Virus record (IMG/VR): IMGVR_UViG_3300030004_000009
Span: 112,704 to 176,703 of that record
Direction: 5' to 3' (one strand)
Source of the DNA: a virus
Length of the DNA: 64,000 bases
In this document: positions 10,421-36,708 of the stretch, one piece after another
How the letters are laid out: each line of letters opens with the position of its first letter
Position numbering within the stretch: position 1 is the stretch's first letter
Translations under genes and position numbers: made by a program
The notes under the pieces: generated by a model
Told to the model about the DNA's origin: nothing
Seen by the model: only the letters and a program-made list of their open reading frames with translations
Database searches by the model: none

Positions 10421-10430
10421 AAATTTATCT

Positions 10431-18043: not shown

Positions 18044-18064
18044 AATGTTTATTTGATTTTAGTA

Positions 18065-18334: not shown

Positions 18335-18336
18335 TG

Positions 18337-18414: not shown

Positions 18415-18605
18415 TGTTAATACTATCTTTGTTTCATGGCAATTTCCTTTAATAGTAATCACAATTGTAGATCTCCTACAACATCATACGATAGTAATTC
18501 TTTAGCTAACGCGCCCTCTCGTTAGCAATTTTAATAACTGTATATATAAGTGTAACTGTTACACCTAATAATATAAGCAATAAAGTTCCCATAAATTAGA
18601 CGTTA

Positions 18606-18989: not shown

Positions 18990-18992
18990 GAT

Positions 18993-21002: not shown

Positions 21003-21075
21003 AATTTGATCTTTTACAGGCGCACAATACCTGATTTGTTTAAAATACAATCTTTATATGCTCTCAGATTGTTTG

Positions 21076-21177
21076 TGTATGCAGAAGGATACGATCCTTC
21101 GATCCCGTGAGGAAGGAGTAACTTATGAACTCGTCAATTGTTAACTCGTACGGTGCCCAACACCGCCTTGCGATACA
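21076..21177 (-). ncRNA. tRNA-like element TL3
   Basis: TGTAT(C)GCA/TGCATACA, long D-stem GCGGTG/CACCGT, GAGT(T)AAC-(17 nt)-GTTACTC, variable hairpin, GAAGG-ATCGTAT-CCTTC. Confidence 0.6.
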
Positions 21178-21363
21178 TTTAATAAGTAGTAGTTATACAG
21201 TAGAAACACCGATCAGCATTTAGATTATAAGTGAGCAGGATACTGATCCTCGAGGAATTTACCAGCTTCAGAGACTCATAACCAGCATTACCTTGTACTT
21301 AGATTAACGGCTACTTAGCTATTACTACTGCTTTCCTACTATTTCTTTTTGATTGTTTTGAAG

Positions 21364-21780
21364 TGGAGTGTATGGGATTCGAACCCATGTCTTACTCATC
21401 ATTATAAAGCTTTCTACATGTTTAACTCAATTTTTATCGATAGTAGAGTTCCATCTATTTAGTTTTACATTCTAACAAATGTTTAAAAGCTTCTATTACA
21501 TTGCAGCTTAAATTAACTTTACATATTCCGCGTTTGGCCATAATTGTATGTTCAACTATCTGATTACACAGCCTAAGATCAGTATACTTTAACCCCAGAT
21601 TAAGGGTCCACTATAACACTTTGTGTTAAGCTGCAATCCTCATAGAGGAAGTCCGGCTTGTCATGGAGATAACTTTACAGTTGCCATTTGAAATTTTGAA
21701 AGTTCTATTTAAAGTGGTCTCCTCACAACCCACTACATGCTTACTTTACTCTGTACGAGCAATCAATACCTGCACACCCC
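21364..21780 (-). ncRNA. ssrA: tmRNA
   Basis: Acceptor GGGGTGT/ACACTCC with G3-U wobble, T-arm ATGGG-TTCGAAT-CCCAT, tag frame 21685-21626 encoding GNCKVISMTSRTSSMRIAA-stop. Confidence 0.92.
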
Positions 21781-21932
21781 ATGTAGTTTAAAAGTAACCA
21801 CTTATACCAGTGGTTGTTGGTCCGTTTCTTATTCTAACCGTAGAAAGTAATCATCAACGAGTTTCCCATTATATTTATAATTCTCAGTTGGGTCTGGCCA
21901 GTAGCTTACTGGATAGCGCATGCAGCTTCTTT

Positions 21933-22145
21933 TTAAATCATCACATATTCTCCATCAGGTCCTCTAACTGGAATATAATTAGACTGCTCTTTAGGTTCTT
22001 CAAGTAACTCTGGAAACACTTCTTCTAACCATTCGTTAAAGTACTCTCTATCAATACTAAGAGGATAAACTTCTTTACCTGCTTCTCTTGATATGCCTTT
22101 CATGTAAGCCTCCCACATTGCAGTTCTTATTTCTTCATTCGTCAT
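21933..22145 (-). CDS. Hypothetical protein
   Basis: 70 aa; EAY..G..YFNEW motif shared with the C-terminus of 22412..22708. Confidence 0.55.
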   Translation of the reverse strand: MTNEEIRTAMWEAYMKGISREAGKEVYPLSIDREYFNEWLEEVFPELLEEPKEQSNYIPVRGPDGEYVMI

Positions 22146-22411
22146 ACTTACTTTGCTTTATCATTTGTTTGTATAAACTTTCAAACTTTATTCTCCTAAC
22201 TTCTAACCATTGTGAATACTCTTGTTCTTCATTGAGTTTACCATTAGAACCAGCTTGATAAAATTGCCACATAAGTTCTTTTAAAACCTCTCCTATTTCT
22301 ATCATTTGTTATTTCATAAAAGGTTTAAAGATCTCTACCATTAACCATACATAAAGCACTGACACCAACAGTTTGAAAACAGTAATTACCACTATTTCTT
22401 TTATTTTGTTG

Positions 22412-22708
22412 TTAGGCTGTTTCATTTCTATAATTTTTAAACCATTCATCAAAATATTTAGTGACATCTCCAGTAGTATCAGTGACTAACTTTAAACCTG
22501 CTTTATAAGCTTCTCGTAATAGCTCTATATACTCTAAATCTGAAACTTTGTAAACCTCATTGTAAAGATCAACAGGTATAAAATAAGCTGATAAACCTAT
22601 CTCATCATGACCTTCAAGTTCCATACCAAGTATACATTCATTAAAGCGCTCGTGTTCCATGAAATCCTGACTTTCAGGCCATAGAACTAATTTATATGTA
22701 TTTGACAT
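22412..22708 (-). CDS. Conserved crAss-like hypothetical protein
   Basis: YKLVLWPESQDFMEH..F.EC..SAYFIP motif. Confidence 0.65.
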   Translation of the reverse strand: MSNTYKLVLWPESQDFMEHERFNECILGMELEGHDEIGLSAYFIPVDLYNEVYKVSDLEYIELLREAYKAGLKLVTDTTGDVTKYFDEWFKNYRNETA

Positions 22709-23213
22709 TTTTTGTTTTAATTAATAGTTAAAGAGCATCTTACATAACAGAATACCTATTAAAATATCTTTTATGGCTCATTATGACGGATAGCTCTTTA
22801 ACTTGATTTATAGTAAACTTAAAAATAAGGGTCATCATTCACTGAATAAATATCGTCAATTGGGAATTCTTCACCTGTTGTAGCAATTGCTACTATCTCT
22901 CCATCAAGACCTAAGTGACAGCTATTAAATAGTAAAGGATAGTCAAAATGAAAGACAATTAGTTTATCACCTTCTTGTAATATCATCTCAACATCTCCTG
23001 TTCTATGTAGCTTAAAGCTACAGGTTTTGAAGTTGGTTGAATGTCATGAAAGCTAACTGTACAATTAGTCAGTTTTGAAGCATGATGTACAAACTGGTCT
23101 TTAGAGAGCTTTTCGTGTTGTTCTTCGCTTATGGTGAACACTTTGTTTCCATAAGCAGGAATGATAAAATATAACATGATCTCATTTATTTGGTTTTAAG
23201 TTTAATTAATAGT

Positions 23214-23399
23214 TTAATTAGGTAATTCAACCCAGAATTTCTTATTACAATTAGGACAATGATATTGTACAAAGTCACCATCAGCAACTCCACCACCTTT
23301 ACCGTAGTCTTCATCTATTTCAATAGCATCTGGATGTTGCCATCTTCCTTGTTGTTCTTTATTCCAAGGATTTTCTTTAGTACATATTTGTCTTTCCAT
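23214..23399 (-). CDS. Small zinc-ribbon protein
   Basis: CT..PW..HPDA..YHCPNCNK; likely start ATG 23399. Confidence 0.6.
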   Translation of the reverse strand: MERQICTKENPWNKEQQGRWQHPDAIEIDEDYGKGGGVADGDFVQYHCPNCNKKFWVELPN

Positions 23400-23418
23400 T
23401 AGTGTTTTAGCTGATGGC

Positions 23419-23556
23419 TCAACAAGGAATTTGTTTACTGCCTGGTTTAATAAAAGCACCTGCTGGTATACCAGGTTTACCATTCATTGCGTTATAGTTA
23501 CCCATCTTAGATGCTAACTTACGTTCTGCTTTCTTACGTCTACTTGATTTGCTCAT
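23419..23556 (-). CDS. 45-aa basic peptide (MSKSSRRKKAERKLASK...KPGSKQIPC)
   Basis: Hand translation; ATGA-coupled to the upstream ORF; below the track cutoff. Confidence 0.55.
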   Translation of the reverse strand: MSKSSRRKKAERKLASKMGNYNAMNGKPGIPAGAFIKPGSKQIPC

Positions 23557-23789
23557 TGTATAAAGTTAAAGTAATGTTGTTTAAGTTTATTTTTGGTTTC
23601 GTTCGATAACTCCGGTAAATGTAATAGGTTATTTAGGAAGATTTCAGGGTGTTTAGCATTACTCAAGAAGTAAACTAAATCATCCTCCATATCTTCATCT
23701 ATTACTTCTCTCATTCCACCACATTCTTGAGGATGTGCACAATGCCTTAGACCTTGTCTCTGACATGTACTACAATAGTGAAATTTCAT
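23553..23789 (-). CDS. Small Cys/His zinc-binding protein
   Basis: CSTC..HCAHPQECG. Confidence 0.6.
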   Translation of the reverse strand: MKFHYCSTCQRQGLRHCAHPQECGGMREVIDEDMEDDLVYFLSNAKHPEIFLNNLLHLPELSNETKNKLKQHYFNFIQ

Positions 23790-23794
23790 TGTTT

Positions 23795-24280
23795 TTAAGT
23801 TAAGATTCCGTCGTGTATTACTTTGTCGTTATAGGTAACTCTTACCCTATCAGCGTACTGATTGAAGCTACAATATTTACCAAATCGTTCTACTGCTTCA
23901 TCTTCAACACATTCAATATATCCCCAACTCTTATGATGTATGTAAGGGTAGTGTTGAATGTCCCAGTAATCAAGGATATGACGGTCATCCCGTTTTAAAA
24001 AACTACTAGGTTGACCAAAAGCTTTAATACAAGCTTCTTTAGTATTCCAGTACCAAGTAACACTGATACTAGGTAGCTTATCCCAATTAGGATGAGAATC
24101 TTCAAACTCTTTTAAAGTGTATGCACCTGGATAATCATTATCTTTACCCCAAAAATTAATTTCTTGATCCTCAAATTCAGGACGAATTATCCAAGCACAC
24201 TTCTTAGAATGCCAATCAGTTATAGGTACTCCATCAGAATACTGATGTTGTCCATCCATTGAGTTAATGTGTACTTTCAT
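23795..24280 (-). CDS. Hypothetical protein
   Basis: 161 aa ORF. Confidence 0.6.
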   Translation of the reverse strand: MKVHINSMDGQHQYSDGVPITDWHSKKCAWIIRPEFEDQEINFWGKDNDYPGAYTLKEFEDSHPNWDKLPSISVTWYWNTKEACIKAFGQPSSFLKRDDRHILDYWDIQHYPYIHHKSWGYIECVEDEAVERFGKYCSFNQYADRVRVTYNDKVIHDGILT

Positions 24281-24300
24281 TTAGTGTTTTGGATTAAAAG

Positions 24301-24642
24301 CTATAAGGTTAATAGTGCTTTTTTAAATTCTCTTTTGAACACAGTTTGTAAATCTAAACTATCTTCTCCTTCTTGTAGAATATCTGGTAATGAAGTGCCT
24401 TTTGGTACAGCTAAAATTACTTTTATTAATACATTAGGTATTTTTTGACTGTGGTAATCACCTTGTTGAACATGTTTAGTATGTCTACGTTCTTTCATTT
24501 GGATTTCATAACTACGTTTAGTTAAAAACGATTGTACTTCTTCAATAGTGAAACTAGTTTCACTATTGACATAGCGATCTAGATAATAATCTTTACCTCT
24601 ATCTTCACCAAAGTGTTCTCTGTATTGTTCTCTTGTTATCAT
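24301..24642 (-). CDS. Hypothetical protein
   Basis: 113 aa ORF. Confidence 0.6.
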   Translation of the reverse strand: MITREQYREHFGEDRGKDYYLDRYVNSETSFTIEEVQSFLTKRSYEIQMKERRHTKHVQQGDYHSQKIPNVLIKVILAVPKGTSLPDILQEGEDSLDLQTVFKREFKKALLTL

Positions 24643-24654
24643 GATTAGTTTTAA

Positions 24655-25170
24655 TTAAAGGTGAAGCATGTTTCTCATGCCATTATAAAGATCAGGATCA
24701 AGATCAGGATATAAATCCACAGTTAAGTCTTCCCACATTCTTTCGAGTTCTCTATCAGTTGGATAACTGTATATTAAGGAGTCATTATCTAAAACTGGAA
24801 GTACGTGATCATTAAATGTGTTGTGTAAGAAGTTACACAACACATGATTACCTCTCTTATGAAGCAAACTCATCGATTCTCTTATGTAGAGTTTGTTATT
24901 GTCTCTTACATTCTTATGAGGACGAAGCCACATTATGTTATCATATTGCTTCCATGTTATATAGCTCCAATCATCATAAAATTCAAGAATACTATGAACA
25001 AATGATTTTTGTCTAAAGTCGTAAGTCTTGAATGCTAAAACATCATAACACTTATACCAAAAGTCATGGCAATGATCTGCAAGATCAATGTCTGCAATAA
25101 AGGATTTATCTCTTGTTGGTTGTTGTGATTGCCATACTTGATATCGTGGCGTTACTTGTTTTAGATACAT
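24655..25170 (-). CDS. Hypothetical protein
   Basis: 171 aa ORF. Confidence 0.55.
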   Translation of the reverse strand: MYLKQVTPRYQVWQSQQPTRDKSFIADIDLADHCHDFWYKCYDVLAFKTYDFRQKSFVHSILEFYDDWSYITWKQYDNIMWLRPHKNVRDNNKLYIRESMSLLHKRGNHVLCNFLHNTFNDHVLPVLDNDSLIYSYPTDRELERMWEDLTVDLYPDLDPDLYNGMRNMLHL

Positions 25171-25229
25171 GTTAGAGATCAGAGAGCTTAAAGTACTCTT
25201 GAGTGAAGACTATAGTCTAACTTTTAAAT

Positions 25230-25511
25230 TTACTCTTTAGGGAAAAGTTGCTTTTGTAAGCTAAGCAAAATCTTTACACCTGCTTCAGCTTCTTCAAGTT
25301 TATTTATGGCGTTTACAATGTCCTTTGCACTAAAAGGAGTAGCAGACTTTTCATTTTCCACCATTTGTCTTAAACTAACAACTGATCGCTCTGAAGCTAA
25401 GATGTCTGCTTGTAACTGTAGCTCTGCATCCTCCACCTGATATTGGAGTTCCAGGGATTCTTTGGCCTCCTGTGATTGTTGGAGTCTTTCTTTGTACGAT
25501 AATGTGCTCAT
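25230..25511 (-). CDS. Coiled-coil hypothetical protein
   Basis: 93 aa with A-rich leader; overlapped by the 3' end of the upstream ORF. Confidence 0.65.
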   Translation of the reverse strand: MSTLSYKERLQQSQEAKESLELQYQVEDAELQLQADILASERSVVSLRQMVENEKSATPFSAKDIVNAINKLEEAEAGVKILLSLQKQLFPKE

Positions 25512-26346
25512 GTTTTTTATTTGTTTTTAAATTTAATTCTGTGTATTGTATTTCAGGTATGTTCCACTTAAGAAATGTTGCTTTAATTGTTGTATAAATA
25601 ATATGTCCACCTTCTAAAGCCCACCATACTTCATTTTTGTTATTAAAAGTAGCATGTTTCCAATACTCACCTCCTAATTCTTTCATTTTAGCTAGAATCT
25701 GAAGACTTATATCATAATTAGGTGAGTAAACTTTGAAGTTATTAGGGAAACTAGACTGCCAATCAACCATTACAAACTCATTACATGGGTCAATAGTTCC
25801 TCTATAAGTATTAAAACCTGGCTCACCATAAGTTATCTTTTTAGCTTGATCAGTTAAATGTTCGACTATGCCAACTCCTCTAGGTATGATTTGTTTACCT
25901 AAAATATCATTAACTGTAATAAGTTTATTACTGTGATAACTGAAGTAACTTGGAGTATTAGACCAACCAACGAGTCTGTCACTGTTTATAAATAAATAAG
26001 GTGCTTCAGGATTAACTGTCTCTACTTTAACTGTATTCCAACCATAGCCTAACTCAAATAGTTTCTTCTGTACCAAAACACTTTCTTCTGGTGTAACTTG
26101 TAGTTTGGTATTTCTAAAGTCTAATTCTTCAGTTACATTTAAACCATAGAAGCTATTGTAAAAATTTACAAAACCTTTAAGCGCTACATATGTTGAATGA
26201 CTTGTTACATCAACAATATAAAAAACGCTTGAATGTACACTATCAACACTATACGTTATGTGTTTTGAGAGTTTTAAATCTGCCCAAGCATTGAGTACTT
26301 CTCCAGGAATTTCTTGACCTACTTCAACTTTTGTTATTGGTTTCAT
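25375..26346 (-). CDS. Hypothetical protein with two related domains
   Basis: Two similar segments (VQKKLFELGYGW and ILAKMKELGGEYW). Confidence 0.65.
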   Translation of the reverse strand: MKPITKVEVGQEIPGEVLNAWADLKLSKHITYSVDSVHSSVFYIVDVTSHSTYVALKGFVNFYNSFYGLNVTEELDFRNTKLQVTPEESVLVQKKLFELGYGWNTVKVETVNPEAPYLFINSDRLVGWSNTPSYFSYHSNKLITVNDILGKQIIPRGVGIVEHLTDQAKKITYGEPGFNTYRGTIDPCNEFVMVDWQSSFPNNFKVYSPNYDISLQILAKMKELGGEYWKHATFNNKNEVWWALEGGHIIYTTIKATFLKWNIPEIQYTELNLKTNKKHEHIIVQRKTPTITGGQRIPGTPISGGGCRATVTSRHLSFRAISC

Positions 26347-26442
26347 CTTCTTTTATTTTTAACCTTACTTATTAAAAGGTAAAACTACTAAATTAAGAGT
26401 AATCTAACAGTCTCACCTTTTAAGTAGTAAGCATTGAGTTAA

Positions 26443-26967
26443 TTAACAGTTTCCATAACCACCTATTTGACCCGGCCCAACAGCTTTAGAGGCTTCCTTT
26501 TCAAACTTCTCCCAGGCTTCAAGATCAATGAAATCCGATACAATTTGAATTTTACTATCCCAGTGAATAAATGATGTACGATCCTTAACACAAACGTAAA
26601 CTGGTACTTGACTTCCACCGGCTTTAGCTTCTTGTTTCTCTACAAATGGTAGAAGTGCGATCATATATCCAGCATGTCTAAAATGTACACCTCCACATGT
26701 AGGACACTTTAAAAGTTGAAGTTCATGTGGATCAGCTGTTTTTATCATTTCACTTTGATTGTAAGCCCCTAAATCCTGTGTGATTTGAAGCTGTTGCATT
26801 GGTATAGTTGTAAATTGTTCAATTGCTGCACCATAATCAAGAGCTAACTGCTCACGATGTTCTTCAGGGAAAGTGTTAATAAATGTCTCAAGTGATTGAG
26901 GTAAGTTTGGTGATGTGGCTAATAGTATAACTATTGCTTGATCAACTTCTGGTGTATCTGTTTTCAT
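26443..26967 (-). CDS. Zinc-finger hypothetical protein
   Basis: CPTCGGVHFRHAGY; likely start ATG 26967. Confidence 0.6.
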   Translation of the reverse strand: MKTDTPEVDQAIVILLATSPNLPQSLETFINTFPEEHREQLALDYGAAIEQFTTIPMQQLQITQDLGAYNQSEMIKTADPHELQLLKCPTCGGVHFRHAGYMIALLPFVEKQEAKAGGSQVPVYVCVKDRTSFIHWDSKIQIVSDFIDLEAWEKFEKEASKAVGPGQIGGYGNC

Positions 26968-27080
26968 TATTATTTGGGTTTTAAATTTTAAAGATAAAGA
27001 ACTCGTGTGATTGTTTCCAACCAAATCCATCTGCCTTGACCCAGTTAGATTCCTGTTATTTCACTGGCACGAGTATATTG

Positions 27081-27485
27081 TTAATTAAGACCACTTATTA
27101 GACGTTCTTCAAGGTTTTCGTCTATAATGATTACATTTTTATATGCATCGATAGTCTCCAATTGTTTAATAAAAGAATTCCAATTATCAATACGCATTAC
27201 TGTTACACCTGTATTTAACTTTTGTGAAGCATACCTTGCAATATCGTAATCAATTTTATTACCTGTAGTAATAAGAAGTAGGTTTTGTTTACTTCTTTCA
27301 ACTAGTTCAATACCTTCGAGGTATTTAGTGTATAGTATACATCTATCGCCATCTTTATTAAAATATTGAATTGCTGCTGAGGTTTCAGTTAACTCAGTAA
27401 GAACACCTCTTATTATTTCTCCAACAAAGGATGCTTTGACTATATCTCCTACTTTAAGAGCTTCGTCGTTTTGGTTTTCTGTCAT
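27081..27485 (-). CDS. Hypothetical protein with SH3/KOW-like N-terminus
   Basis: LKVGDIVK..G. Confidence 0.55.
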   Translation of the reverse strand: MTENQNDEALKVGDIVKASFVGEIIRGVLTELTETSAAIQYFNKDGDRCILYTKYLEGIELVERSKQNLLLITTGNKIDYDIARYASQKLNTGVTVMRIDNWNSFIKQLETIDAYKNVIIIDENLEERLISGLN

Positions 27486-27762
27486 GATTTATAATTGTTT
27501 TGTTTGGTTACTTGATTTGAAACTCCTTGAAGACCGAGACTATAAGAGAGTCTATCTAAGAGTTAATTAACTATTGATTATCATTGATTTTTTATTTAAT
27601 AAAGAACGATTTACAGTCTCAATATCATTAAGGAGTGAGGCATCACCCTCACTCCAAACCAAATAACAGTTAGAATCTAGGGTTCTAACTACCGATCATG
27701 AGAAACAGTGAATACGTTACAGATGCGACCTGTGTAACTCCTGATAGTACGTATTAGTGCTA

Positions 27763-27921
27763 TTAGTCAGCTCCTTGATGACTTTTATTGTGATTTACCG
27801 GTCTGAATTTCTTTTTTTCTTTTTGTTTCTTATTTGCATATTCTGTTTTTAATTCGTCTGTTGTCATGTCACGATGAGTTGTACCTTGTACTTTTGTTTC
27901 ATCTTTCTTATTACTTGCCAT
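27763..27921 (-). CDS. Small basic protein
   Basis: MASNKKDETK... with A-rich leader; start revised to 27921. Confidence 0.5.
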   Translation of the reverse strand: MASNKKDETKVQGTTHRDMTTDELKTEYANKKQKEKKKFRPVNHNKSHQGAD

Positions 27922-28049
27922 TGTGTATTTTGTATTAAACTGTAATTGGAAGAATATGCATAGACAAACTCCCTGGCTTTTTGTTTTATTACAGTTAGAC
28001 AAGAGATAAGGATCTGAGCCTATACACCTAAAGTGTCTCTTGTGGAAAG

Positions 28050-28148
28050 TTACGCATTGTTACGTACCCTTCTTCTACTCATTCCAATAGCCACCACTAT
28101 GATAGCTATAATAGGCAAGAGTTGTGCTGTTAGTCCAATCCATAACAT
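28050..28148 (-). CDS. 32-aa single-TM peptide (MLWIGLTAQLLPIIAIIVVAIGMSRRRVRNNA)
   Basis: Hand translation; A-rich leader, TM helix plus basic tail. Confidence 0.5.
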   Translation of the reverse strand: MLWIGLTAQLLPIIAIIVVAIGMSRRRVRNNA

Positions 28149-28171
28149 TGTAGTGTTTTTGAGATTAATAG

Positions 28172-29410
28172 ATTTATCATTATCTCAGACTTTAGCGTGA
28201 GATGTTAGTTTAATTGCTGTCCTTTAAAGACATTTAAATACCTAAGTATACAATCTATCACCTTATTAATGATAAATGAGCTACTATAGTTTCTTCAGGA
28301 TTTGGTATAAACATATTACTTGCTCAAGGTAATATAAAAGTCCCCATTGTTAGCTCCTGATTGCTTCATTTGTCTTTTGAGTACAAGGCCCAGTTCTACA
28401 TTTTTACAAATGATTATAAAGGTGAGAGTTTGCAACCTCTTTTCCTACTGTAGAATGGCACACACTTAATGTAAATGAGAGAAGCTAGGTCTCAGCGGCC
28501 TAGCTATTACAACGATAAACTCTCATTTTTTAATATTATGAAGCACTCTGTTATAGCTTATTACTAAGACTAATACACTATGAATCATAATTTTTTAACA
28601 GGAATAGTTTACTCACCTGTTGATGCTTGGACACTCTCAAGCTTTGTCTTAGTGGGTTCTTTCAATGTATTACTACATCGTGAAATCTTATAAAGATCTA
28701 TCACACACCTCATACTTGGATACAAGGTTGTTCATTTATAGCACTCCAAGATACTACTTATTGAACTAACTACACTGAGACCCTAGATTCTATCTCACAT
28801 TCGGATTATTAGGTATTGTAGTTATATTTTAAAAACAGAGCTCATGACGAAAACCCGGCGTAGTAAACTACAGTCATGGTAACATATCTCTATATAATTC
28901 GAAGCGGTTTTGCACTCTGTTTAAATTTTCAAACTCAAAGCTCTTATTTAAGTACTATACAGCTAGACGTATACATAGCTTTTATTTGTATAGGTTCTGT
29001 TCTCTGAACAACCGCCATTACTTAAATAGCTTTCTTTGAGTTATATTTTAATATAATTACTCGTTCTAAATAACTGTTGAATAAATCCTTCCTGATCTAC
29101 TGCTTACTTCAATTATTGACGAGTAATTATATTTTTTAATCTTTGATACCTTTTAAGTAGTAAATGTAACGTGGAGGTGTTAGTAATTTCTTATATGTAT
29201 AAATTTTTTAAAGCTCCAACTACGTACGTAGCCTTGCTAGTACGAATAACGCTGTCCTAATAAAAGTTAGGAGCCTATGGGATTCTGCTACTGTTTACCC
29301 CACCATTTTACTGGAAACCCCGGTTATCCTTTTGGCCCGGAAGGTCAGCTTTAGGTTATCAACCCTACATTTAGACTAAGCAAGCCTAGTCGGAGATAAG
29401 CCCGACTCGT
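28172..29410 (-). ncRNA. Array of about 10 consecutive end-paired structured RNA domains
   Basis: 1.25 kb without a 60-aa ORF; successive closing stems separated by AT-rich linkers. Confidence 0.5.
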
Positions 29411-29413
29411 ATC

Positions 29414-29695
29414 TTATATGCACTCAAATAAGTTGTCTAGCCATTTATGATCTTTGATATCTAGTGCATGTTGTTTTAATACCTGTTCTTTCTCTTCTTC
29501 ACTTGACCATGTAAGTAATTGTGATGCAGGATTTGGTGTTCCAGCATAGATGTCTAAAGCTATCATAAATGGTAACTCTTTTGATCTGCATAATTCTTTG
29601 ATGGTTTCATTATGATGATACGCTTTGTATAGAATTACAATACCTCGTTTACCTTCTGTCTTGATCTCTAATGCATCTGCTATTTCTGTGTTCAT
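29414..29695 (-). CDS. Hypothetical protein
   Basis: Start revised to ATG 29695 because the longer frame overlaps tRNA-Glu. Confidence 0.6.
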   Translation of the reverse strand: MNTEIADALEIKTEGKRGIVILYKAYHHNETIKELCRSKELPFMIALDIYAGTPNPASQLLTWSSEEEKEQVLKQHALDIKDHKWLDNLFECI

Positions 29696-29717
29696 GACTA
29701 TTTGGTTTAAATGTAAG

Positions 29718-29791
29718 TATAGTGTATGGGACTTGAACCCATGATCTTCACATTGAAAATGTGACGTCTTAACCAGCTTGACCAACACTAC
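29718..29791 (-). tRNA. tRNA-Glu(UUC)
   Basis: GTAGTGT/ACACTAT, GTC/GAC, TCACA-TTTTCAA-TGTGA, ATGGG-TTCAAGT-CCCAT. Confidence 0.88.
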
Positions 29792-29840
29792 ATGACTTGC
29801 CCTCCTTATTAAAAGGTGAAACTAGTATAAAGATTTAAAG

Positions 29841-29928
29841 TAAACCATATGCAATTCGAATGCAAACCTCCTTTCGACGTCGTTACAGGTGTTCTCTGAC
29901 TGAGTAGCCAGCTTAAACTAATGGTTTA
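29841..29928 (-). ncRNA. tRNA-like element TL4
   Basis: TAAACCAT/ATGGTTTA, GTTT/GAAC with an enlarged D-loop, enlarged anticodon loop, TGCA-TTCGAAT-TGCA. Confidence 0.6.
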
Positions 29929-30001
29929 ATTGTACAGTAGTACAATGTGGTTTTGGCCCAACATTTAGTTGTAGGCACTTTGTTTTTCATGTTACTTGAT
30001 T

Positions 30002-30382
30002 TTATTGCCACTCTCTTCCTTTTATTAATGCAATACCTAACGGTTTTGAATCTACTACAAATTGCCATGTGTAATCTGTAACCATCCATAACTTATCACA
30101 CGTTAAATCATAAGAACAAAATGTAAGTCCATTTGAAGTAGCTTTATAATTATAAAGCTTCCATCTTATTTGATCTTTATCTCTAACTAATTGTGTTAAT
30201 TTATAGATTATTTGGTTATAAACCACGTTATCAATTTGTATTGTGTTGCGTTTAATTTCAGTACTATATGTTGGTTCTGCTCTACTCATCTTCTTTTGAG
30301 GAAGTTGTAAGCCCTCGAACTGTTCATTAATTGGCCATAAAACAAATAGAAAAACGCTTTGATTAATTAGTGGTTTTTTCAT
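30002..30382 (-). CDS. Hypothetical protein
   Basis: 126 aa ORF. Confidence 0.55.
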   Translation of the reverse strand: MKKPLINQSVFLFVLWPINEQFEGLQLPQKKMSRAEPTYSTEIKRNTIQIDNVVYNQIIYKLTQLVRDKDQIRWKLYNYKATSNGLTFCSYDLTCDKLWMVTDYTWQFVVDSKPLGIALIKGREWQ

Positions 30383-30399
30383 GTTATTTAGTTTTACAT

Positions 30400-30458
30400 T
30401 TAGCTGATGGCTCTTAGCTGATGGCTCTTAGCTGATGGCTCTTAGCTGATGGCTCTTA
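30400..30458. repeat. Perfect tandem repeat (TTAGCTGATGGCTC) x4
   Basis: Four identical 14-mers without spacers. Confidence 0.95.
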
Positions 30459-30463
30459 AAGTA

Positions 30464-30489
30464 AGGAGTTAGTATTGCTACTAACTCCT
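30464..30489 (-). repeat. GCAA-tetraloop hairpin family, copy 1
   Basis: AGGAGTTAGTA-GCAA-TACTAACTCCT. Confidence 0.8.
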
Positions 30490-30870
30490 AATTGAATGAA
30501 AAGATAATAAAAGAAATAAACTATAATAGTGATTGTAATGTTTGAAAGTTTAATTAAATATTTTGTTTGACGTGTTTTACGTTCTAAAATCATTTATTAA
30601 TCTTCCTGTAACGCTACAATTCGTTATAGGCTAATAAAGAGGAGTAAACTCTCTACCGTAACTTGACCTTTACTCTTCATTAGTTAATTATAAATGCTAC
30701 CTTTATTACTCTGTTGAGTATAATTAAGCCGTGTCGCTATATGCTATCCTGTGACTCATTTATAATTAAATATTTAGTGATCGTAACATTTGTATTAAGG
30801 TTACAATTCGTTATAGAATCAGTAACTAAGATAGTTCCCACTATTCTTTCTAACTTAGTTAACAAACGGT

Positions 30871-30946
30871 TGGTTACACATTATGGATTTGAACCACAAT
30901 CAAGAGAACCAAAATCTCCTATCCTAGCCAGTTGGACGAATGTGCA
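30871..30946 (-). tRNA. tRNA-Gln(UUG)
   Basis: TGCACAT/ATGTGTA-A-CCA, GGAGA-TTTTGGT-TCTCT, TGTGG-TTCAAAT-CCATA. Confidence 0.88.
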
Positions 30947-31384
30947 ATTTAACTTTAAGAATAATATAATTACTGCTTATGAGGATTAAGGTAATACTCA
31001 TAAGCTACCACCAGCCATCCATCTCAAGTACCCACATGTGACCATCCTTAAGGTTTTACATATAGTAATCTTGGTTCCTCACTATACTATTCTTTTAACT
31101 TAGAATTGCTATTATGATTCCTATTACTAAAAAAAGTAAAAAGATTAATAGACATTCTTTGAATGTTTGTGGATCAGGGTAAGTCGTCATCTTCTATAAG
31201 TTTTTTAATTAAATATCGAATAGTTAAACCTGTTCCTACTATAAGTACAGCTAATGTACCTAGAATGTAATAAAATATTTCCATTGACTTTGTTTTTAAT
31301 GGTTATCGTAGCCATTATAATAAATCCATGCTTTTAGACATAGAATACAAGTATAAACAAGTGCTACGATTAATAAAAGATAGA

Positions 31385-31636
31385 TCATACTTTGTTTTGA
31401 TAATTTGTGATTGTAAATGGTTTAATGACCGATTTAATTGAAGGGAGTTGCTGTTCGTTTTGAAGTAGAGTGATGAAAGCAGCTTGTGTCTTTAAATCTT
31501 TGAATTCTTGTTCTTTAAGGTCTCCTTGATAAACTCTTAAAGTTTCTCTTGGAAGTATGATTAAAGTATAAATATTCATAATATTTGGTGACCATTTCCC
31601 TGTCATCACTCTACCTAAAACTGTTGTAATTTGCAT
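31385..31636 (-). CDS. Hypothetical protein
   Basis: Likely start ATG 31636 just after the upstream stop. Confidence 0.5.
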   Translation of the reverse strand: MQITTVLGRVMTGKWSPNIMNIYTLIILPRETLRVYQGDLKEQEFKDLKTQAAFITLLQNEQQLPSIKSVIKPFTITNYQNKV

Positions 31637-31637
31637 T

Positions 31638-32096
31638 TTAAAAATGTTGCTCACTGTTACCAGGATAATTATAGTTATCAGAAGGTAAAGCATCACTACC
31701 GTCAAATGTTCCAATAGGTTCAACTACTGGAACTTCATCATCAATCCAATTTTTTAGGTATTGTAATTTACTGATTGTTAAAGGCTGAATGATAAAGTTA
31801 TCAGGTAATATTGATGGAATTAAAGGTTGACCAATCTCGTCTTCATCGAGATTGTAAGTTACGAACTCTGGTGTTTGTAAAGCTTCAGGTAAACCTAACC
31901 ATTCAGGTAAGTCACCACCATGAAACCAGAAGGCTTCAAGAATAGTTATTACACTGTGTTTGACAAGTGGTTCGTTAATTTCCTCTTTGATTTCTTCGAC
32001 GCCCTCAATACTTGTGTGTAATGCATCAAGTCCTTGATTGACATACGTGTCAATTAAAGCTTGAAATTTTGGTGTGTAAAGTCTGATTATTCTCAT
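31638..32096 (-). CDS. Acidic hypothetical protein
   Basis: 152 aa, AACCAAAATC leader. Confidence 0.6.
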   Translation of the reverse strand: MRIIRLYTPKFQALIDTYVNQGLDALHTSIEGVEEIKEEINEPLVKHSVITILEAFWFHGGDLPEWLGLPEALQTPEFVTYNLDEDEIGQPLIPSILPDNFIIQPLTISKLQYLKNWIDDEVPVVEPIGTFDGSDALPSDNYNYPGNSEQHF

Positions 32097-32120
32097 GATT
32101 TTGGTTTTAAGTTTGTTGTT

Positions 32121-32342
32121 TTATAACCACTTTGGTGGATTTCCTGGTAATTTACTTGCTAAATATTTGAATAGTAAACGAACTAAATATCCTAATACAA
32201 ATATCCAAGAAGATAAAGCTATTATTAAAGTTAATAGTATATCATCCCAAGTCCACTCTGTACTTATAGATTTTATAAAAATCCGCTTAACTAATTTGTA
32301 GGCTATAACATAACCTATAAAGTATATTGCTGTTAATATCAT
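32121..32342 (-). CDS. Small two-TM membrane protein
   Basis: 73 aa hydrophobic. Confidence 0.6.
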   Translation of the reverse strand: MILTAIYFIGYVIAYKLVKRIFIKSISTEWTWDDILLTLIIALSSWIFVLGYLVRLLFKYLASKLPGNPPKWL

Positions 32343-32431
32343 AACTTAACTGTTTAATAATAAGATGAATAAGATGAATAACAATAAAGCTATCCATTCA
32401 ATTTTGTTTAGTTTCATAATGTTTAAATTAA

Positions 32432-32457
32432 GGAGTTTAGTATTGCTACTAAACTCC
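32432..32457 (-). repeat. GCAA-tetraloop hairpin family, copy 2
   Basis: GGAGTTTAGTA-GCAA-TACTAAACTCC. Confidence 0.8.
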
Positions 32458-32490
32458 AGCTGTTGATTTGATTTCGCACTTCAAATGTTC

Positions 32491-32802
32491 TTACTGCTCT
32501 TTAGGTAATTTAAGAGTTTTCCTATAATCCTCTATAATTATTGTATAAATAGATGGTGGATAATAAAAACCTTCACTATTAATGTGGAGCTCGTCGCCTT
32601 GTTTAAATACAGTATCTATGTCTAAGGGGATATAGACAGGAGTAACATCTCCAGCTTTTGCATTTATTGGTGAGTTTAACCATTTTCCTCTATAGACTTT
32701 ATAAGTTATAGAGTCAGAGGTTGAAGCCACATATGTTCCTGAATAACAGGATTGAAAGCTTAATGCGATTAAGCTGATGAATAAAATAATTGTTGTTTTC
32801 AT
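32491..32802 (-). CDS. Putative lipoprotein
   Basis: MKTTIILFISLIALSFQSC lipobox; AACCAAATAATC leader; start 32802. Confidence 0.6.
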   Translation of the reverse strand: MKTTIILFISLIALSFQSCYSGTYVASTSDSITYKVYRGKWLNSPINAKAGDVTPVYIPLDIDTVFKQGDELHINSEGFYYPPSIYTIIIEDYRKTLKLPKEQ

Positions 32803-33121
32803 GATTATTTGGTTTTTATGTTGATTATTTGATTTCTTTAGAATAAACATACGCTTGCTACTTACTTTTACATGAACGTGTACACATTATGTTAATAACC
32901 TAAATAGTGTTGATACTGCTTTATAAATGGAAACCCATTTTGTAGAACTATACCTGCAATTAAGCAAGGCTACAAGAATATTTTTCGTATGTTTAGTTTT
33001 TAAAGCTCAACCTTTGCTATAAAAGGTTGAGCCGAGTGTTGTATTACCATCTTTAATATTTCACCACCGTTAAAGACCTTGTCCAAACAGAATGGTATTG
33101 ATGATTTGTAAGCTGGCATGA

Positions 33122-33568
33122 TTAGTCTTTTAGCTCCTCAAATCCTATTCCTTTTACAAGATAGAATTTGTCATCGTCTTGGATAACATCTCCTACTGAT
33201 GTACTACGTACTCCTGGATTCCATTCTTCATCCAGATTCTGTGATTTCTTAAATGCTTCATCTAATGATGTTGCATTAACAAAACCTACATACTTACGTG
33301 GTTGACTTTTGGTTTCAGTAAACTTTAAAGGACCAGTTGCATGATGAATGTGAAATTGTCCTTCTTCCTCCTGAACAGGTGGAAATAACTCTTGCCATTC
33401 TTCATCTATAATACCTGTAAGGTAGAACTCTCTTAAATCTTGTGGCAAATTACTGAAAGCGTCTTGAAGATGAGCACCTTTTTCATAGGCTGCGATTTGT
33501 TCTTGTGTAATAGGAAGATCTATTGTCCTCTCTATTCCACTGTACTGTGAAACTCGTGTTATATTCAT
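33122..33568 (-). CDS. Two-domain hypothetical protein (C-terminal YodL-like RSTSVGDV motif)
   Basis: QDAF..L..DLREFYLTGI and RSTSVGDVI; start 33568. Confidence 0.6.
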   Translation of the reverse strand: MNITRVSQYSGIERTIDLPITQEQIAAYEKGAHLQDAFSNLPQDLREFYLTGIIDEEWQELFPPVQEEEGQFHIHHATGPLKFTETKSQPRKYVGFVNATSLDEAFKKSQNLDEEWNPGVRSTSVGDVIQDDDKFYLVKGIGFEELKD

Positions 33569-33593
33569 GATGATTATTTGGTTACTTTTTAAT

Positions 33594-34290
33594 AACAGGA
33601 ATAGCTTCTTCACCTGTATATAGATATACCTTCTACGCGTGCGACTTAATGAGATATCCTTTGTGTAGTTTCAACACTTCTCCCTGCTAGGGTTGTTTAG
33701 ATTTAAGGGAATAGTTTTCTCACCCTTTATATTACCACTCATCAGGATTCATAGCCTGTGGTAACTTTGCATACTCTTTCAATGCTCTAACTTGTTTTGT
33801 GTGGATAGTTATTTAAGGTTTTCTCTATCCCAGCAACCAGGCTTCTACTATTTTTGATTTCAGTGGTTCAGCTTATTCCCACTTCTTCTTGTTTCTCGTT
33901 ATTTGCTTTCATTGGTACAAGTCAATTAAGCTCAACAATTTGTCCTTCATTGTGTTAGTCTTCCCTCTTGGACTACAGAGTGTAATTAAACGCACCGTCT
34001 CCGATTTACACGGATCATAACAACTATCTTATAAATTGCTGTTATAATGGCTCAAGGTCGCTTAGTTGTCTTTTAAACAACATAACTGATGCGTATTTTT
34101 GGCCTTTGCACTACACTTCTTAGCCTGTGTTAGGGTGAGATTGATTACTCACTTGGTCGCTGGCCCAGCTGTTTACTGGCTTTTTAACTGATTGGTTAAA
34201 TAATACATGCATTAGCTAACTTGAAAAGAGTTAGCGGTGATTAATAAATGTCTCACAACATTAATGGCTGTTCATAAACTAGCTTAATTA
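33594..34290 (-). ncRNA. Candidate large (about 700 nt) ornate ncRNA
   Basis: No 60-aa ORF, many hairpins, two T-loop-like hairpins, lies immediately 3' of a tRNA-like element. Confidence 0.55.
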
Positions 34291-34294
34291 GAGC

Positions 34295-34402
34295 AAATGA
34301 GTCGAGATTCGAACTCAATGAAACGTGATAGTTAAATAAAAAACGATGTATGAACTATGGAAACAAAAACTCTTAACTATCTATTCCTTTCCTACCTCAT
34401 TT
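34295..34402 (-). ncRNA. tRNA-like element TL5
   Basis: AAATGAG/CTCATTT, T-arm TTGAG-TTCGAAT-CTCGA, 9-bp stem GATAGTTAA/TTAACTATC around a 37-nt loop; no D-stem. Confidence 0.6.
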
Positions 34403-34404
34403 AA

Positions 34405-34522
34405 TTAAACACTAAACTATGTATAATTCCTGCCAACGGAAGCTATTATCACCAACAATTGCCGGCAAAGTCCGCACGCCGTATTAATGGACTTACAAAT
34501 TATACTATAGTTTAGTGTTTAA
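34405..34522. ncRNA. Long inverted-repeat element with GC-rich interior
   Basis: 16-bp plus 8-bp perfect arms TTAAACACTAAACTAT-GTATAATT and AATTATAC-T-ATAGTTTAGTGTTTAA. Confidence 0.55.
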
Positions 34523-34548
34523 AGAGTTAGATATTGCTATCTAACTCT
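34523..34548 (-). repeat. GCAA-tetraloop hairpin family, copy 3
   Basis: AGAGTTAGATA-GCAA-TATCTAACTCT. Confidence 0.8.
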
Positions 34549-34555
34549 GTGTTTG

Positions 34556-35035
34556 TTATTCAATGATTTCACCTAACAACCACTCGCGAATGTCAAGAAG
34601 TAAGAACTTCTGAGCAATGTAAGTGTCTGGATTAAAGTTACCAATTCGGTGATTTGGATTTGTCTCAATCCTTTCTGCATTTGCTTTCTCTTTACCCGAT
34701 TCTTCATCACGTTCTTCTTCACAATGTTTCATTCTTGCTTCAAGCCATTTGCGCATTAACATGACTTCAACACGGTTGAGTTCAATGTGAAACATAGCTT
34801 CGTCTTTAATGTCGTAATACGCCTTTTCAAGTGCATAATGACTTAATTTACGAAAGAGAGTGTTTGCTTCATCACTTGTTAGTTTATGATGAAAGACGCC
34901 AAGTAAGATTTGCCTTACTGAAAACAATGACAATGTGAAGAGTGCTGAAATGTTGAAATTTACGTATCTAGGTTCGTTAACGGTTTGTACGTTTGAGGTT
35001 TTAAAGCCTGTTAATGGGATGTTTGATGTGTTCAT
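34556..35035 (-). CDS. Early hypothetical protein
   Basis: 159 aa, two AACCAAATAATC leader motifs. Confidence 0.65.
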   Translation of the reverse strand: MNTSNIPLTGFKTSNVQTVNEPRYVNFNISALFTLSLFSVRQILLGVFHHKLTSDEANTLFRKLSHYALEKAYYDIKDEAMFHIELNRVEVMLMRKWLEARMKHCEEERDEESGKEKANAERIETNPNHRIGNFNPDTYIAQKFLLLDIREWLLGEIIE

Positions 35036-35080
35036 GATCTTTGATTATTTGGTTTTTATGATTATTTGGTTTCTTTTTAA

Positions 35081-35112
35081 TTGAGAGTTTAATATTGCTA
35101 TTAAACTCTCAA
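35081..35112 (-). repeat. GCAA-tetraloop hairpin family, copy 4
   Basis: TTGAGAGTTTAATA-GCAA-TATTAAACTCTCAA. Confidence 0.8.
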
Positions 35113-35115
35113 GTG

Positions 35116-35403
35116 TTAATGTTTGTTTTCTGTGATCATAAAGTCATAAGAGTTTCTTGTATTACCTACACTAAATTCCATATAACCATACTCACAATTC
35201 TTGTCTCTGTATTCCTGATTCCCTACTAAATGGTCTTTAGACCATTCTTTAAAATCTTCTTCGTTGACAATCTTAGTATCTTCTGTGTATACTAAAAGAA
35301 TTTCTTTCTTGTGTGTTTCAGAAGAACTTGTATGAGGTCTCATTAATATTAATTTACCTTCTAATACAACTTTGTTGCTTTTGTTCATAATGTAAAAGTA
35401 CAT
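35116..35403 (-). CDS. Early hypothetical protein
   Basis: 95 aa with repeated leader motif. Confidence 0.6.
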   Translation of the reverse strand: MYFYIMNKSNKVVLEGKLILMRPHTSSSETHKKEILLVYTEDTKIVNEEDFKEWSKDHLVGNQEYRDKNCEYGYMEFSVGNTRNSYDFMITENKH

Positions 35404-35811
35404 GATCTTTGATGTTTTTAATATGATGTTATTTGGTTATTTGGTTATTTACTCTTTTGGATATTAACACTCCCTTACTCCTATTTTATTTAAACAATTG
35501 TTTAAAACAACTTTTAATAGTCTGAAAGGTGATTTGTGGTTTTATTTTCATTCATCGTAATATTACGATTGATCGAAAAATGATCATTTTTGAACGAAAT
35601 TGAGCACTTAAATTTACACCACCAAGTTAAAAATAGACTTAGTTCCGTTTTTAGACTAATGGAGTGGATGTGTACTACAAGCTTGTATTTGATCTACGAG
35701 ATTCTCGTAATTGAAAATAACCGCTATGTCGATCGACTATTCCATTCATTTCAATTACAAAATTAACACTCTCAAGTCCATACTAGACATGAGAGTAAGA
35801 AAAGAGAAAGC

Positions 35812-36246
35812 TTACACTTTCTCTTTTCTTTTAGCTGGTTGTTTAACTTCATTTGGATCTATTTCAACATATACCCATTTGTCCTCACCCTCTTTTGCAT
35901 CATGTTTCCATGTTGCTTTATGAGTTCTTTTCCATTCTTCATACTGTTCAAATGTCATATCTACAGCTCGATTAGTTGTAGGTTCACTGTGTATCATTGT
36001 AGTATAGCCGTTATAGTTCTTTATAACAATTATAAATAATGGGACATCAAGTTCGATAACAGAGTAAAGTTTATCTGAATGTTTATAGAAAGGTTCAGTT
36101 CTAACATTTGCAGCTGATGCTTTATTTAAAGCACCTTGAATTACATGATTTGCACCAACTGTAACATTTAATGATAATACCTGAGGCATATCTATTACAT
36201 TAAAAGAGAAAGCATGTACTGGATCAATAACTAGTAATATCTTCAT
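35812..36246 (-). CDS. Early hypothetical protein downstream of the hammerhead ribozyme
   Basis: MKILLVIDPV...; start revised to ATG 36246 (144 aa). Confidence 0.65.
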   Translation of the reverse strand: MKILLVIDPVHAFSFNVIDMPQVLSLNVTVGANHVIQGALNKASAANVRTEPFYKHSDKLYSVIELDVPLFIIVIKNYNGYTTMIHSEPTTNRAVDMTFEQYEEWKRTHKATWKHDAKEGEDKWVYVEIDPNEVKQPAKRKEKV

Positions 36247-36260
36247 GATGTTGATTATTT

Positions 36261-36315
36261 GGTTAAGACACAAACTGTGTTTCGGCTATTCTTTTTTAAG
36301 CCTCATCAGTTAACC
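36261..36315 (-). ncRNA. Type I hammerhead ribozyme
   Basis: GGTTAA-CTGATGA-GGCT(11 nt)AGCC-GAAA-CAC(5 nt)GTG-TC/TTAACC; full catalytic core, three stems, GUC cleavage triplet. Confidence 0.9.
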
Positions 36316-36557
36316 TTACTTCTTAATTAAAACTATGCTTACACATTACAAGGTAAGACTGATATCTTACTTTATAAGTGACTGTTCCTTGACTTCTATG
36401 CTTACACATAGAGTTACTCCCTCCTTGACTTATACAATATCATTGCACACCGTTTACGCGCGTAGTTCCTTAATGGAAATGCTACGTGATACTAAAATTG
36501 CTACACTATCAATATGTAATGATACACGAAGCGATCTTTAGATCCACGCGTTGTATG

Positions 36558-36620
36558 CCTTGTATATCGAAGAGCGATAGACCTTACATATCGAAGAGTG
36601 ATAGACCTTGCATATCGAAG
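36558..36620. repeat. Imperfect 24-bp tandem repeat x2.6 (CCTTRYATATCGAAGAGYGATAGA)
   Basis: Copies start at 36558, 36582 and 36606. Confidence 0.85.
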
Positions 36621-36678
36621 CGTAATGAAGAGCGAAGTTAAAATCGAATGCGAAGCATGAGTACTGTTATACCAAACT

Positions 36679-36708
36679 AAACTATGAGCCCTTTCGGACC
36701 CATAGTTT
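36679..36708 (-). terminator. Strong hairpin after the first minus-strand gene
   Basis: AAACTATGGGTCC-GAAA-GGGCTCATAGTTT. Confidence 0.6.

What the first reader, a model, noticed from the sequence alone, without database searches (positions are those of the whole stretch)
33594..34290. About 700-nt ornate ncRNA candidate directly downstream of a tRNA-like element
Seen: no 60-aa ORF, A/G-rich minus strand, many hairpins (TTACCAC/GTGGTAA, GGATAG/CTATCC, AACCA/TGGTT, GTTGT/ACAAC, GTGAG/CTCAC, GCTAACT/AGTTAGC) and two T-loop-like hairpins. Established: large phage ncRNAs such as GOLLD and ROOL are of this size class and lie near tRNA genes. I cannot match it to either by eye, so it may be a distant member or a new class.
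Basis: partly seen in the sequence, partly recalled or inferred. Interest (0 to 1): 0.72.

Follow-up and report, generated by a model that had tools for sequence, protein, structure and literature searches.

The report
Orphan gene-free stretch, crAss-like phage
A roughly 1-kb stretch without genes in the early-gene arm of an uncultivated peat crAss-like phage is truly non-coding and probably transcribed. It is not GOLLD, ROOL or OLE, has no detectable relatives, and folds no better than neighbouring genes, so an "ornate RNA" remains unproven.

Summary
The sequence features are real. It has no ORF under four genetic codes, no leftover coding signal and no repeats.

The listed hairpins exist but are about what chance gives:
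- Folding z is -1.95 on the minus strand and -1.14 on the plus strand.
- Local 150-nt windows score no better than flanking genes.
- Five same-length coding controls range from -3.15 to +0.84.

Rfam 15, which includes GOLLD, ROOL and OLE, gives nothing even at E<=10.

No homologue was found anywhere. Six other contigs are 100% identical. Syntenic relatives (45-65% protein identity) have a completely different early arm, so covariation cannot be tested.

Seven peat or permafrost metatranscriptome runs hold 21-51% of the stretch's 31-mers, which suggests transcription. I could not lay the reads.

The two ends are built from small elements that recur in this genome: a terminator-like hairpin, a long stalk hairpin, a tRNA-like acceptor/T-arm helix, two conserved-loop hairpins and a leader motif. 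The roughly 570-nt core is featureless.

The closest precedent is the highly transcribed early intergenic RNA of phage phi14:2, which is unrelated in sequence.

The scan has no look-alike on other DNA. A follow-up on the neighbouring gene-free block of this genome pointed to the same precedent.

The parts
34556..35035 (-). Upstream early gene (159 aa, no known family).
   Evidence: ORF list. No Pfam, PHROG or PDB match. One 34%-identical relative in phage record G001.
34523..34548 (-). Terminator-like perfect 11-bp hairpin just after the upstream gene's stop, with a weak U tract. It belongs to a hairpin family repeated in the early arm.
   Evidence: Inverted repeat I7; terminator scan; repeated ends detected by blastn against the rest of the genome.
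34405..34522 (-). Long stalk hairpin: AT-rich arms of about 24 bp around a GC-richer interior of about 70 nt.
   Evidence: Inverted repeat I1. Fold -43 kcal/mol, z -5.66, 0 of 200 shuffles as stable.
34295..34402 (-). tRNA-like element: 7-bp acceptor helix and T arm with a UUCGAAU loop. The D and anticodon arms are replaced by a 9-bp helix (GAUAGUUAA/UUAACUAUC) that encloses about 40 nt.
   Evidence: Read from the sequence. ARAGORN finds it only at its laxest setting, and there is no Rfam tRNA hit. Four similar elements on the same strand were printed.
33728..34294 (-). Unique non-coding core of about 570 nt with no repeat, no family match and no significant folding signal.
33705..33727 (-). 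Hairpin AAGGG-UGAGAAAACUAUU-CCCUU, one copy of the conserved-loop hairpin family.
   Evidence: direct repeat D3.
33595..33617 (-). Hairpin ACAGG-UGAAGAAGCUAUU-CCUGU, a second copy, 11 nt before the leader motif. A third copy lies at 28597-28622.
33572..33583 (-). Leader motif AACCAAAUAAUC, 3 nt before the start codon.
   Evidence: 9 copies on the minus strand of the window against 0.84 expected. Most copies (6 of 9) lie 0-17 nt before an ATG; the copy at 30206-30217 has none close by.
33122..33568 (-). Downstream early gene (148 aa). Its N-terminal half matches phrog_20898, a family of unknown function.

Best explanation
The stretch is a lineage-specific, non-coding part of the minus-strand early transcription unit of a distant crAss-like phage. 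It is a long early non-coding transcript or leader, not a member of a known RNA family.

It is a mosaic:
- The 5' side carries a terminator-like hairpin, a long stalk hairpin and a tRNA-like acceptor/T-arm helix.
- The 3' side carries two conserved-loop hairpins and the leader motif found before many early start codons.
- About 570 nt of unique sequence lies between them.

Proposed mechanism:
1. Early transcription runs through the stretch.
2. Host tRNA-processing enzymes (RNase P and RNase Z) cut at the tRNA-like element, as they do at true tRNAs. This releases a downstream RNA that starts near 34294.
3. That RNA is the long 5' leader of the mRNA for the 148-aa protein.
4. The conserved-loop hairpins next to the start codon act as protein-binding or stabilising sites.

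Basis of each step:
- Shown: it is non-coding, the element families exist, and the phage is crAss-like.
- Indicated but not shown: transcription.
- Inferred: the cleavage, the leader role and any function of the core.
For: Non-coding:
- No ORF under code 11, code 4, TAG=Q or TAA=Q.
- Codon-usage score stays below 0.15 in all six frames, against means of 0.15-0.55 in-frame for six neighbouring genes.
- No tblastx remnant.

Strand:
- All neighbouring genes are on the minus strand, and the minus strand is purine-rich like them.

Elements at the ends recur in this genome:
- Leader motif, 9 copies against 0.84 expected.
- Hairpin family with two compensatory pairs.
- tRNA-like helices.
- Stalk hairpin, z -5.66.

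RNA processing next to leaders is plausible here:
- tRNA-Glu ends 10 nt before a leader copy.
- A hammerhead-like core lies just before another copy.

Transcription:
- Seven metatranscriptome runs of only 0.23-0.66 Gb hold 21-51% of the stretch's 31-mers.

Precedent:
- In crAss-like phage phi14:2, two long early intergenic regions are transcribed above most genes and persist through infection (bioRxiv 10.1101/2020.03.07.982082).
- The window's terminase matches Crassvirales phages.
Against: - I could not lay reads, so there is no strand, no transcript ends, and no comparison of depth with the flanking genes. An RNA library can also carry DNA.
- The hairpin at 34523-34548 may terminate the upstream transcript. 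No promoter was identified inside the gap: sigma-70-like sites number 4 against 8.2 expected, and the Bacteroidota -7 motif is not enriched.
- The tRNA-like element has no thermodynamic support on its own (z -0.19), and cleavage there is untested.
- Nothing shows that the 570-nt core does anything.
- The nearest relatives lack any equivalent.
Confidence: 0.45

Rival explanations
1. Functionless spacer. The DNA was left by recombination and gene turnover in a hypervariable early arm. It is transcribed only by read-through, and only the small elements at its ends do anything.
For: - Genes on both sides of the early arm are syntenic with relative G002 at 45-65% identity, but nothing between window 17000 and 36700 is conserved.
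- No relative has an equivalent gap that is not tRNA or tmRNA.
- Folding is at background level.
- The stretch has no paralogue in this genome, and shared k-mers with the other large gap are at chance level.
Against: - Phage genomes rarely keep 1 kb of useless DNA.
- There is no coding remnant of a lost gene.
- The stretch is intact and identical in all six other contigs.
- It appears in small metatranscriptome assemblies.
Confidence: 0.25
2. A stand-alone, stable, highly structured large RNA of a new class (about 700-900 nt). It would act, for example, in host takeover or counter-defence.
For: - It is non-coding, about 5 GC points above the genome mean, and on the sense strand of the early arm.
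- Parts of it are held by seven or more small metatranscriptome runs.
- Folding z-scores do not discriminate well in these AT-rich phages. The proven phi14:2 early RNA region scores -0.14 and that phage's tmRNA scores -0.66.
- The phi14:2 precedent exists.
Against: - z is only -1.95, and the local windows are unremarkable.
- No homologues means no covariation.
- Its ends are made of elements shared with other loci, so a single 700-nt unit is not indicated.
Confidence: 0.15
3. A DNA-level element, such as a replication origin, packaging site or promoter cluster.
For: A RepL-like gene lies 3.8 kb away. The stalk arms contain TATAAT words.
Against: - There are no iterons or tandem repeats.
- The cumulative GC-skew minimum is at window 37200, the strand switch, not here.
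- Promoter-like sites are fewer than in shuffles.
Confidence: 0.05
4. A decayed tRNA array or a decayed protein gene.
For: Relatives carry 24-27 tRNAs against 3-4 here. A tRNA-like element and T-loop-like hairpins are present.
Against: - There is no tRNA model hit even at E<=10, and ARAGORN finds nothing until its laxest setting.
- There is no coding-potential or tblastx remnant.
Confidence: 0.03
5. A distant member of GOLLD, ROOL or OLE.
For: The size class fits, and it lies in a phage next to a tRNA-like element.
Against: cmscan against all 4227 Rfam 15 models with permissive filters lists none of them at E<=10 on either strand. Nothing reaches gathering score in the whole window.
Confidence: 0.02

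Closest known systems
Long early intergenic non-coding RNA of crAss-like Cellulophaga phage phi14:2 (g004-g005 junction, NC_021806 2905-3589; Drobysheva et al., bioRxiv 10.1101/2020.03.07.982082)
   Same: - It lies in a crAss-like phage, in the early-gene arm, on the same strand as the early genes.
- It is about 690 nt without genes and purine-rich.
- It has no Rfam family.
- Its function is unknown.
   Different: - There is no sequence similarity (nhmmer and blastn; whole record).
- phi14:2 has time-course RNA-seq showing high and persistent levels. Here there are only unlaid k-mer matches in metatranscriptomes.
- In phi14:2 the region lies just upstream of the phage tmRNA. Here the tmRNA is 12 kb away.
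GOLLD and ROOL RNAs (Rfam; Kretsch et al. 2025, PMC12286853)
   Same: They are large non-coding RNAs of phages and prophages, often near tRNA islands. The size class is similar.
   Different: - There is no covariance-model match.
- There is no conserved, covariation-supported multi-stem architecture.
- True tRNAs are 2.6 kb or more away. Only a tRNA-like helix is adjacent.
tRNA-punctuated RNA processing (phage T4 tRNA cluster with its stable species 1 and 2 RNAs; MALAT1/mascRNA) — from general knowledge
   Same: A tRNA-shaped acceptor/T-arm helix sits at the boundary of a long non-coding RNA, where RNase P or RNase Z cleavage could define an end.
   Different: Cleavage is not shown here. The element lacks normal D and anticodon arms.

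Membership tests
GOLLD (Rfam) | Significant match to the family covariance model (conserved 3' domain) | tested here: not met
   No hit at gathering score in the window or at E<=10 in 33300-34800 on either strand.
GOLLD / ROOL | Encoded in a phage or prophage, often next to tRNA islands | tested here: inconclusive
   It is a phage. Only a tRNA-like helix is adjacent. The nearest true tRNAs are at 30871-30946 and 29717-29791.
ROOL (Rfam) | Significant match to the family covariance model (P1-P19 with pseudoknots) | tested here: not met
   no hit.
OLE (Rfam) | Significant match to the family covariance model | tested here: not met
   no hit.
Any structured RNA family | Covariation-supported secondary structure across homologues | not testable with these tools
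   - The only other copies are 100% identical.
- There is no homologue in phage records, IMG/VR, JGI metagenomes or relatives' early arms.
phi14:2-type long early non-coding RNA of crAss-like phages | Long (over 600 nt) gene-free region in the early arm of a crAss-like phage, sense to the early genes | tested here: met
phi14:2-type long early non-coding RNA of crAss-like phages | Transcribed above most genes and persisting late in infection | tested here: inconclusive
   Seven metatranscriptome runs hold 21-51% of its 31-mers.
phi14:2-type long early non-coding RNA of crAss-like phages | Sequence homology to the phi14:2 region | tested here: not met
   nhmmer gives nothing, and blastn gives only chance-level matches.
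tRNA (for the adjacent element 34295-34402) | Cloverleaf with a D arm and a 7-nt anticodon loop; detected by ARAGORN or the Rfam tRNA model | tested here: not met
   The acceptor helix and T arm are present, but there is no normal D or anticodon arm. It is not called by ARAGORN at default settings or by the Rfam tRNA model.

The most novel reading that the evidence does not exclude
The stretch encodes an abundant, stable early RNA of 0.7-0.9 kb, specific to this peat crAss-like phage lineage. Cleavage at the upstream tRNA-like helix releases it from the early transcript. It would be a functional counterpart of the unexplained phi14:2 early long non-coding RNA, which would make such RNAs a recurrent feature of crAss-like phages that evolves too fast for sequence homology to survive.
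Probability: 0.15. Interest if true: 0.65.

Novelty: new variant of a known kind. Interest (0 to 1): 0.3.

Why it matters
Long non-coding RNAs of phages such as GOLLD, ROOL and the phi14:2 early RNAs are abundant, yet their functions are unknown. A second crAss-like phage with a transcribed gene-free early region of about 1 kb would suggest these RNAs are a general early-infection device of the group, even though their sequences are unrelated. That idea could be tested in the cultivable phi14:2 system.

As it stands, the evidence only shows an orphan non-coding stretch with interesting small elements at its ends. It should not be catalogued as a new ornate RNA class.

Tried and rejected
So there is no depth, strand or transcript ends.
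- Nucleotide searches found nothing: the phages collection; records G001, G002, G003 and phi14:2; nhmmer on G001 and G002 in full and on L004 and L019-L021 and L040-L042.
- Exact 19-23-mers from the core and from the tRNA-like element are absent from viral contigs and metagenome contigs.
- Relatives fetched through flanking or nearby proteins were either 100% identical or at most 66% identical with no equivalent region.
- A profile search with the RepL-like protein found only G002 again, plus one 4-kb contig.
- 'relatives' is not available for virus records. Four loci (L019, L021, L040, L041) could not be extended to their full records.
- The 937-nt gap in relative G001 looked like a candidate homologue but is a tmRNA plus small ORFs.
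- Paralogy with the other large gap (28003-29413) is rejected. Shared 8-10-mers are at shuffle level, and the shared CAUUGAAAGA word is not collinear with the shared hairpin.
- Alternative genetic codes are rejected.
- The Bacteroidota -7 promoter word TANNTTTG is not enriched: 69 found against 93 expected.
- A terminase alignment was abandoned because one row was only 20% identical.
- The flanking proteins have no match to a solved structure or an Atlas cluster.

Full report
**What the window is**

The window is bases 112704-176703 of a 176.7-kb IMG/VR virus record, estimated 86% complete. DNA runs that hold the stretch are peat metagenomes. The terminase and portal match phage families. The terminase's relatives in GenBank are Crassvirales and other crAss-like phages of Bacteroidota. 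Genes from about window 37300 downwards are on the minus strand. This early arm also carries tRNAs and a tmRNA.

**The observation**

- It lies between a 159-aa gene (34556-35035) and a 148-aa gene (33122-33568), both on the minus strand.
- No ORF of 60 aa or more exists. The longest on the minus strand is 30 aa.
- Reading TGA, TAG or TAA as sense opens nothing that spans it.
- A codon-usage score trained on the phage's long genes stays at out-of-frame level in all six frames. The maximum is 0.14, against in-frame means of 0.15-0.55 for six neighbouring small genes.
- tblastx against the rest of the genome and two relatives finds no remnant.
- There are no tandem repeats or iterons.
- The minus strand is 58% purine.

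The non-coding character and the composition are confirmed, and all quoted hairpins are present.

**Is the structure more than chance?**

- For 33594-34290 the minimum free energy gives z = -1.95 (minus) and -1.14 (plus) against 100 dinucleotide shuffles.
- In 150-nt windows the interior scores +0.8 to -2.0. Flanking coding windows reach -3 to -4.8.
- Four sub-domains folded alone give +0.31, -1.50, -0.50 and -0.19.
- Five coding controls of the same length give -3.15, -0.71, +0.04, -0.38 and +0.84. The phage's own tmRNA gives -3.59.

The many hairpins are therefore about what this composition gives by chance. One caveat applies: this statistic is weak in such AT-rich phages. The phi14:2 tmRNA scores only -0.66, and that phage's proven early non-coding region scores -0.14.

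**Known families**

cmscan of the whole window at gathering thresholds finds only four tRNAs and the tmRNA. A permissive scan of 33300-34800 at E<=10 lists seven chance-level hits. None is GOLLD, ROOL, OLE, tRNA, an intron or a ribozyme family with a credible score.

**Anatomy**

Reading 5' to 3' on the minus strand:
1. A perfect 11-bp terminator-like hairpin (34523-34548) with a weak U tract.
2. A long stalk hairpin (34405-34522).
3. A tRNA-like element (34295-34402). Its 7-bp acceptor helix abuts a T arm with a UUCGAAU loop. The rest is a 9-bp helix enclosing about 40 nt.
4. About 570 nt of unique sequence (33728-34294).
5. Two hairpins with the loop UGARAA..CUAUU (33705-33727, 33595-33617). 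A third copy at 28597-28622 differs by two compensatory stem changes.
6. The motif AACCAAAUAAUC, 3 nt before the start codon. It has nine copies on the minus strand against 0.84 expected, most of them (6 of 9) 0-17 nt before an ATG.

Only the ends match other places in the genome. The core has no paralogue, and it shares no more k-mers with the other large gap (28003-29413) than shuffles do. The stretch therefore looks like a mosaic of small recurrent elements around an unremarkable core, not one 700-nt unit.

**Relatives**

- Six other contigs carrying the downstream gene are 100% identical across the gap. The two differences in one of them lie at 31175 and 31243.
- The next relatives of the flanking and nearby proteins are at most 66% identical.
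- Record G002 is syntenic with this genome on both sides at 45-65% protein identity. Nothing between window 17000 and 36700 is recognisable in it, and its early arm has no gap above 484 nt.
- Large gaps in G001 and L041 are tRNA arrays or tmRNA.
- nhmmer and blastn find nothing in any relative.
- Exact words from the core are absent from the viral and metagenome collections.
- Profile searches for more relatives returned only G002 and one short contig.

**Expression**

Of the 24 best-holding public runs, ten are peat or permafrost metatranscriptomes. Seven of these, each of only 0.23-0.66 Gb, hold 21-51% of the sampled 31-mers. This suggests the stretch is transcribed at a level that allows assembly. 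I lost the single read-laying run to a filter. Strand, ends and depth relative to the flanking genes are therefore unknown, and DNA carry-over is not excluded.

**Precedent**

A note from this scan on the neighbouring gene-free block pointed to phage phi14:2, and I checked the paper. In this crAss-like phage, two long intergenic regions in the early arm (the g004-g005 and g005-g006 junctions) are transcribed above most genes, from the earliest time point, and do not decline. Their function is unknown.

In the record I find that the g005-g006 region contains a tmRNA (ARAGORN 4031-4500; Rfam 46 bits against a threshold of 47). The g004-g005 region (2905-3589, 685 nt) has no family and no similarity to the stretch studied here. 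This is the closest known thing in kind, but it is not a homologue.

**Interpretation**

Most likely (0.45): a lineage-specific non-coding part of the early transcript. It would be a long leader or long early RNA whose ends are defined by small cis elements.
- Processing at the tRNA-like helix is an inference. Two observations support it: tRNA-Glu ends 10 nt before another leader copy, and a sub-threshold hammerhead-like core lies just before a third copy.
- Rivals are functionless spacer DNA in a hypervariable arm (0.25), a stand-alone structured RNA of a new class (0.15), a DNA-level element (0.05; the GC-skew minimum is at 37200), a decayed tRNA array or gene (0.03), and a distant GOLLD, ROOL or OLE (0.02).

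**Verdict**

The stretch is real and non-coding and lies beside a tRNA-like element, but it is not demonstrably more structured than chance. A long non-coding transcript is plausible and has a published analogue. The 'ornate' label and any link to GOLLD or ROOL are not supported. Interest is modest until read coverage or homologues become available.

Noticed in passing
L043:4031-4502 (phi14:2, NC_021806): One of the two 'long non-coding intergenic regions' reported as highly transcribed in phi14:2 (the g005-g006 junction) contains a tmRNA. ARAGORN calls it at 4031-4500 with tag GSSVQKLAMVA. Rfam tmRNA scores 46 bits, just under the 47-bit threshold. tmRNA genes also sit in the early arms of this phage (21361-21780), G001 and L041.
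   Followed up: partly
L043:3256-3364: A 109-nt piece of the phi14:2 g004-g005 non-coding region is about 75% identical to unannotated DNA in the unrelated Cellulophaga phages phi4:1 and phi17:2. This may be a small conserved RNA element shared by phages of one host.
   Followed up: no
window 36274-36347 (-): A hammerhead-like sequence (CUGAUGAG ... CGAAAC core) scores 22 bits, E 0.016, in a 251-nt scan, below the 48.5-bit threshold. It lies immediately upstream of a copy of the leader motif at 36253-36264.
   Followed up: partly
window 29696-29791, 33572-33617, 35043-35108, 36253-36347 (-): At these four copies the AACCAAAUAAUC leader is preceded within about 10-25 nt by a structured element: tRNA-Glu, the conserved-loop hairpin, a terminator-like hairpin, or the hammerhead-like core. 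Two copies share a longer context, AUUAAAAAG(U/A)AACCAAAUAAUC. This suggests RNA processing or a phage-specific promoter.
   Followed up: partly
window 17000-36700 versus G002 81400-95200 (L029): The early arm is completely unconserved between this phage and its nearest relative, while both flanks are syntenic at 45-65% protein identity.
   Followed up: partly
L025:15254-15327; L029:4959-5045 and 10364-10452 (G002): Relative G002 carries 27 tRNA-type genes. One has a CUA anticodon (a possible amber suppressor), and two in its early arm are tRNA-like with abnormal anticodon loops. This phage record has only 3-4 tRNAs.
   Followed up: no
window 10609-10685 (-): The Rfam tRNA model scores this at 60 bits, but ARAGORN does not report it.
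   Followed up: no
window 16458-16524, 21076-21177, 29841-29928 (-): Three further tRNA-like elements with paired acceptor ends and T arms but rebuilt middles lie on the same strand as the one at 34295-34402.
   Followed up: partly
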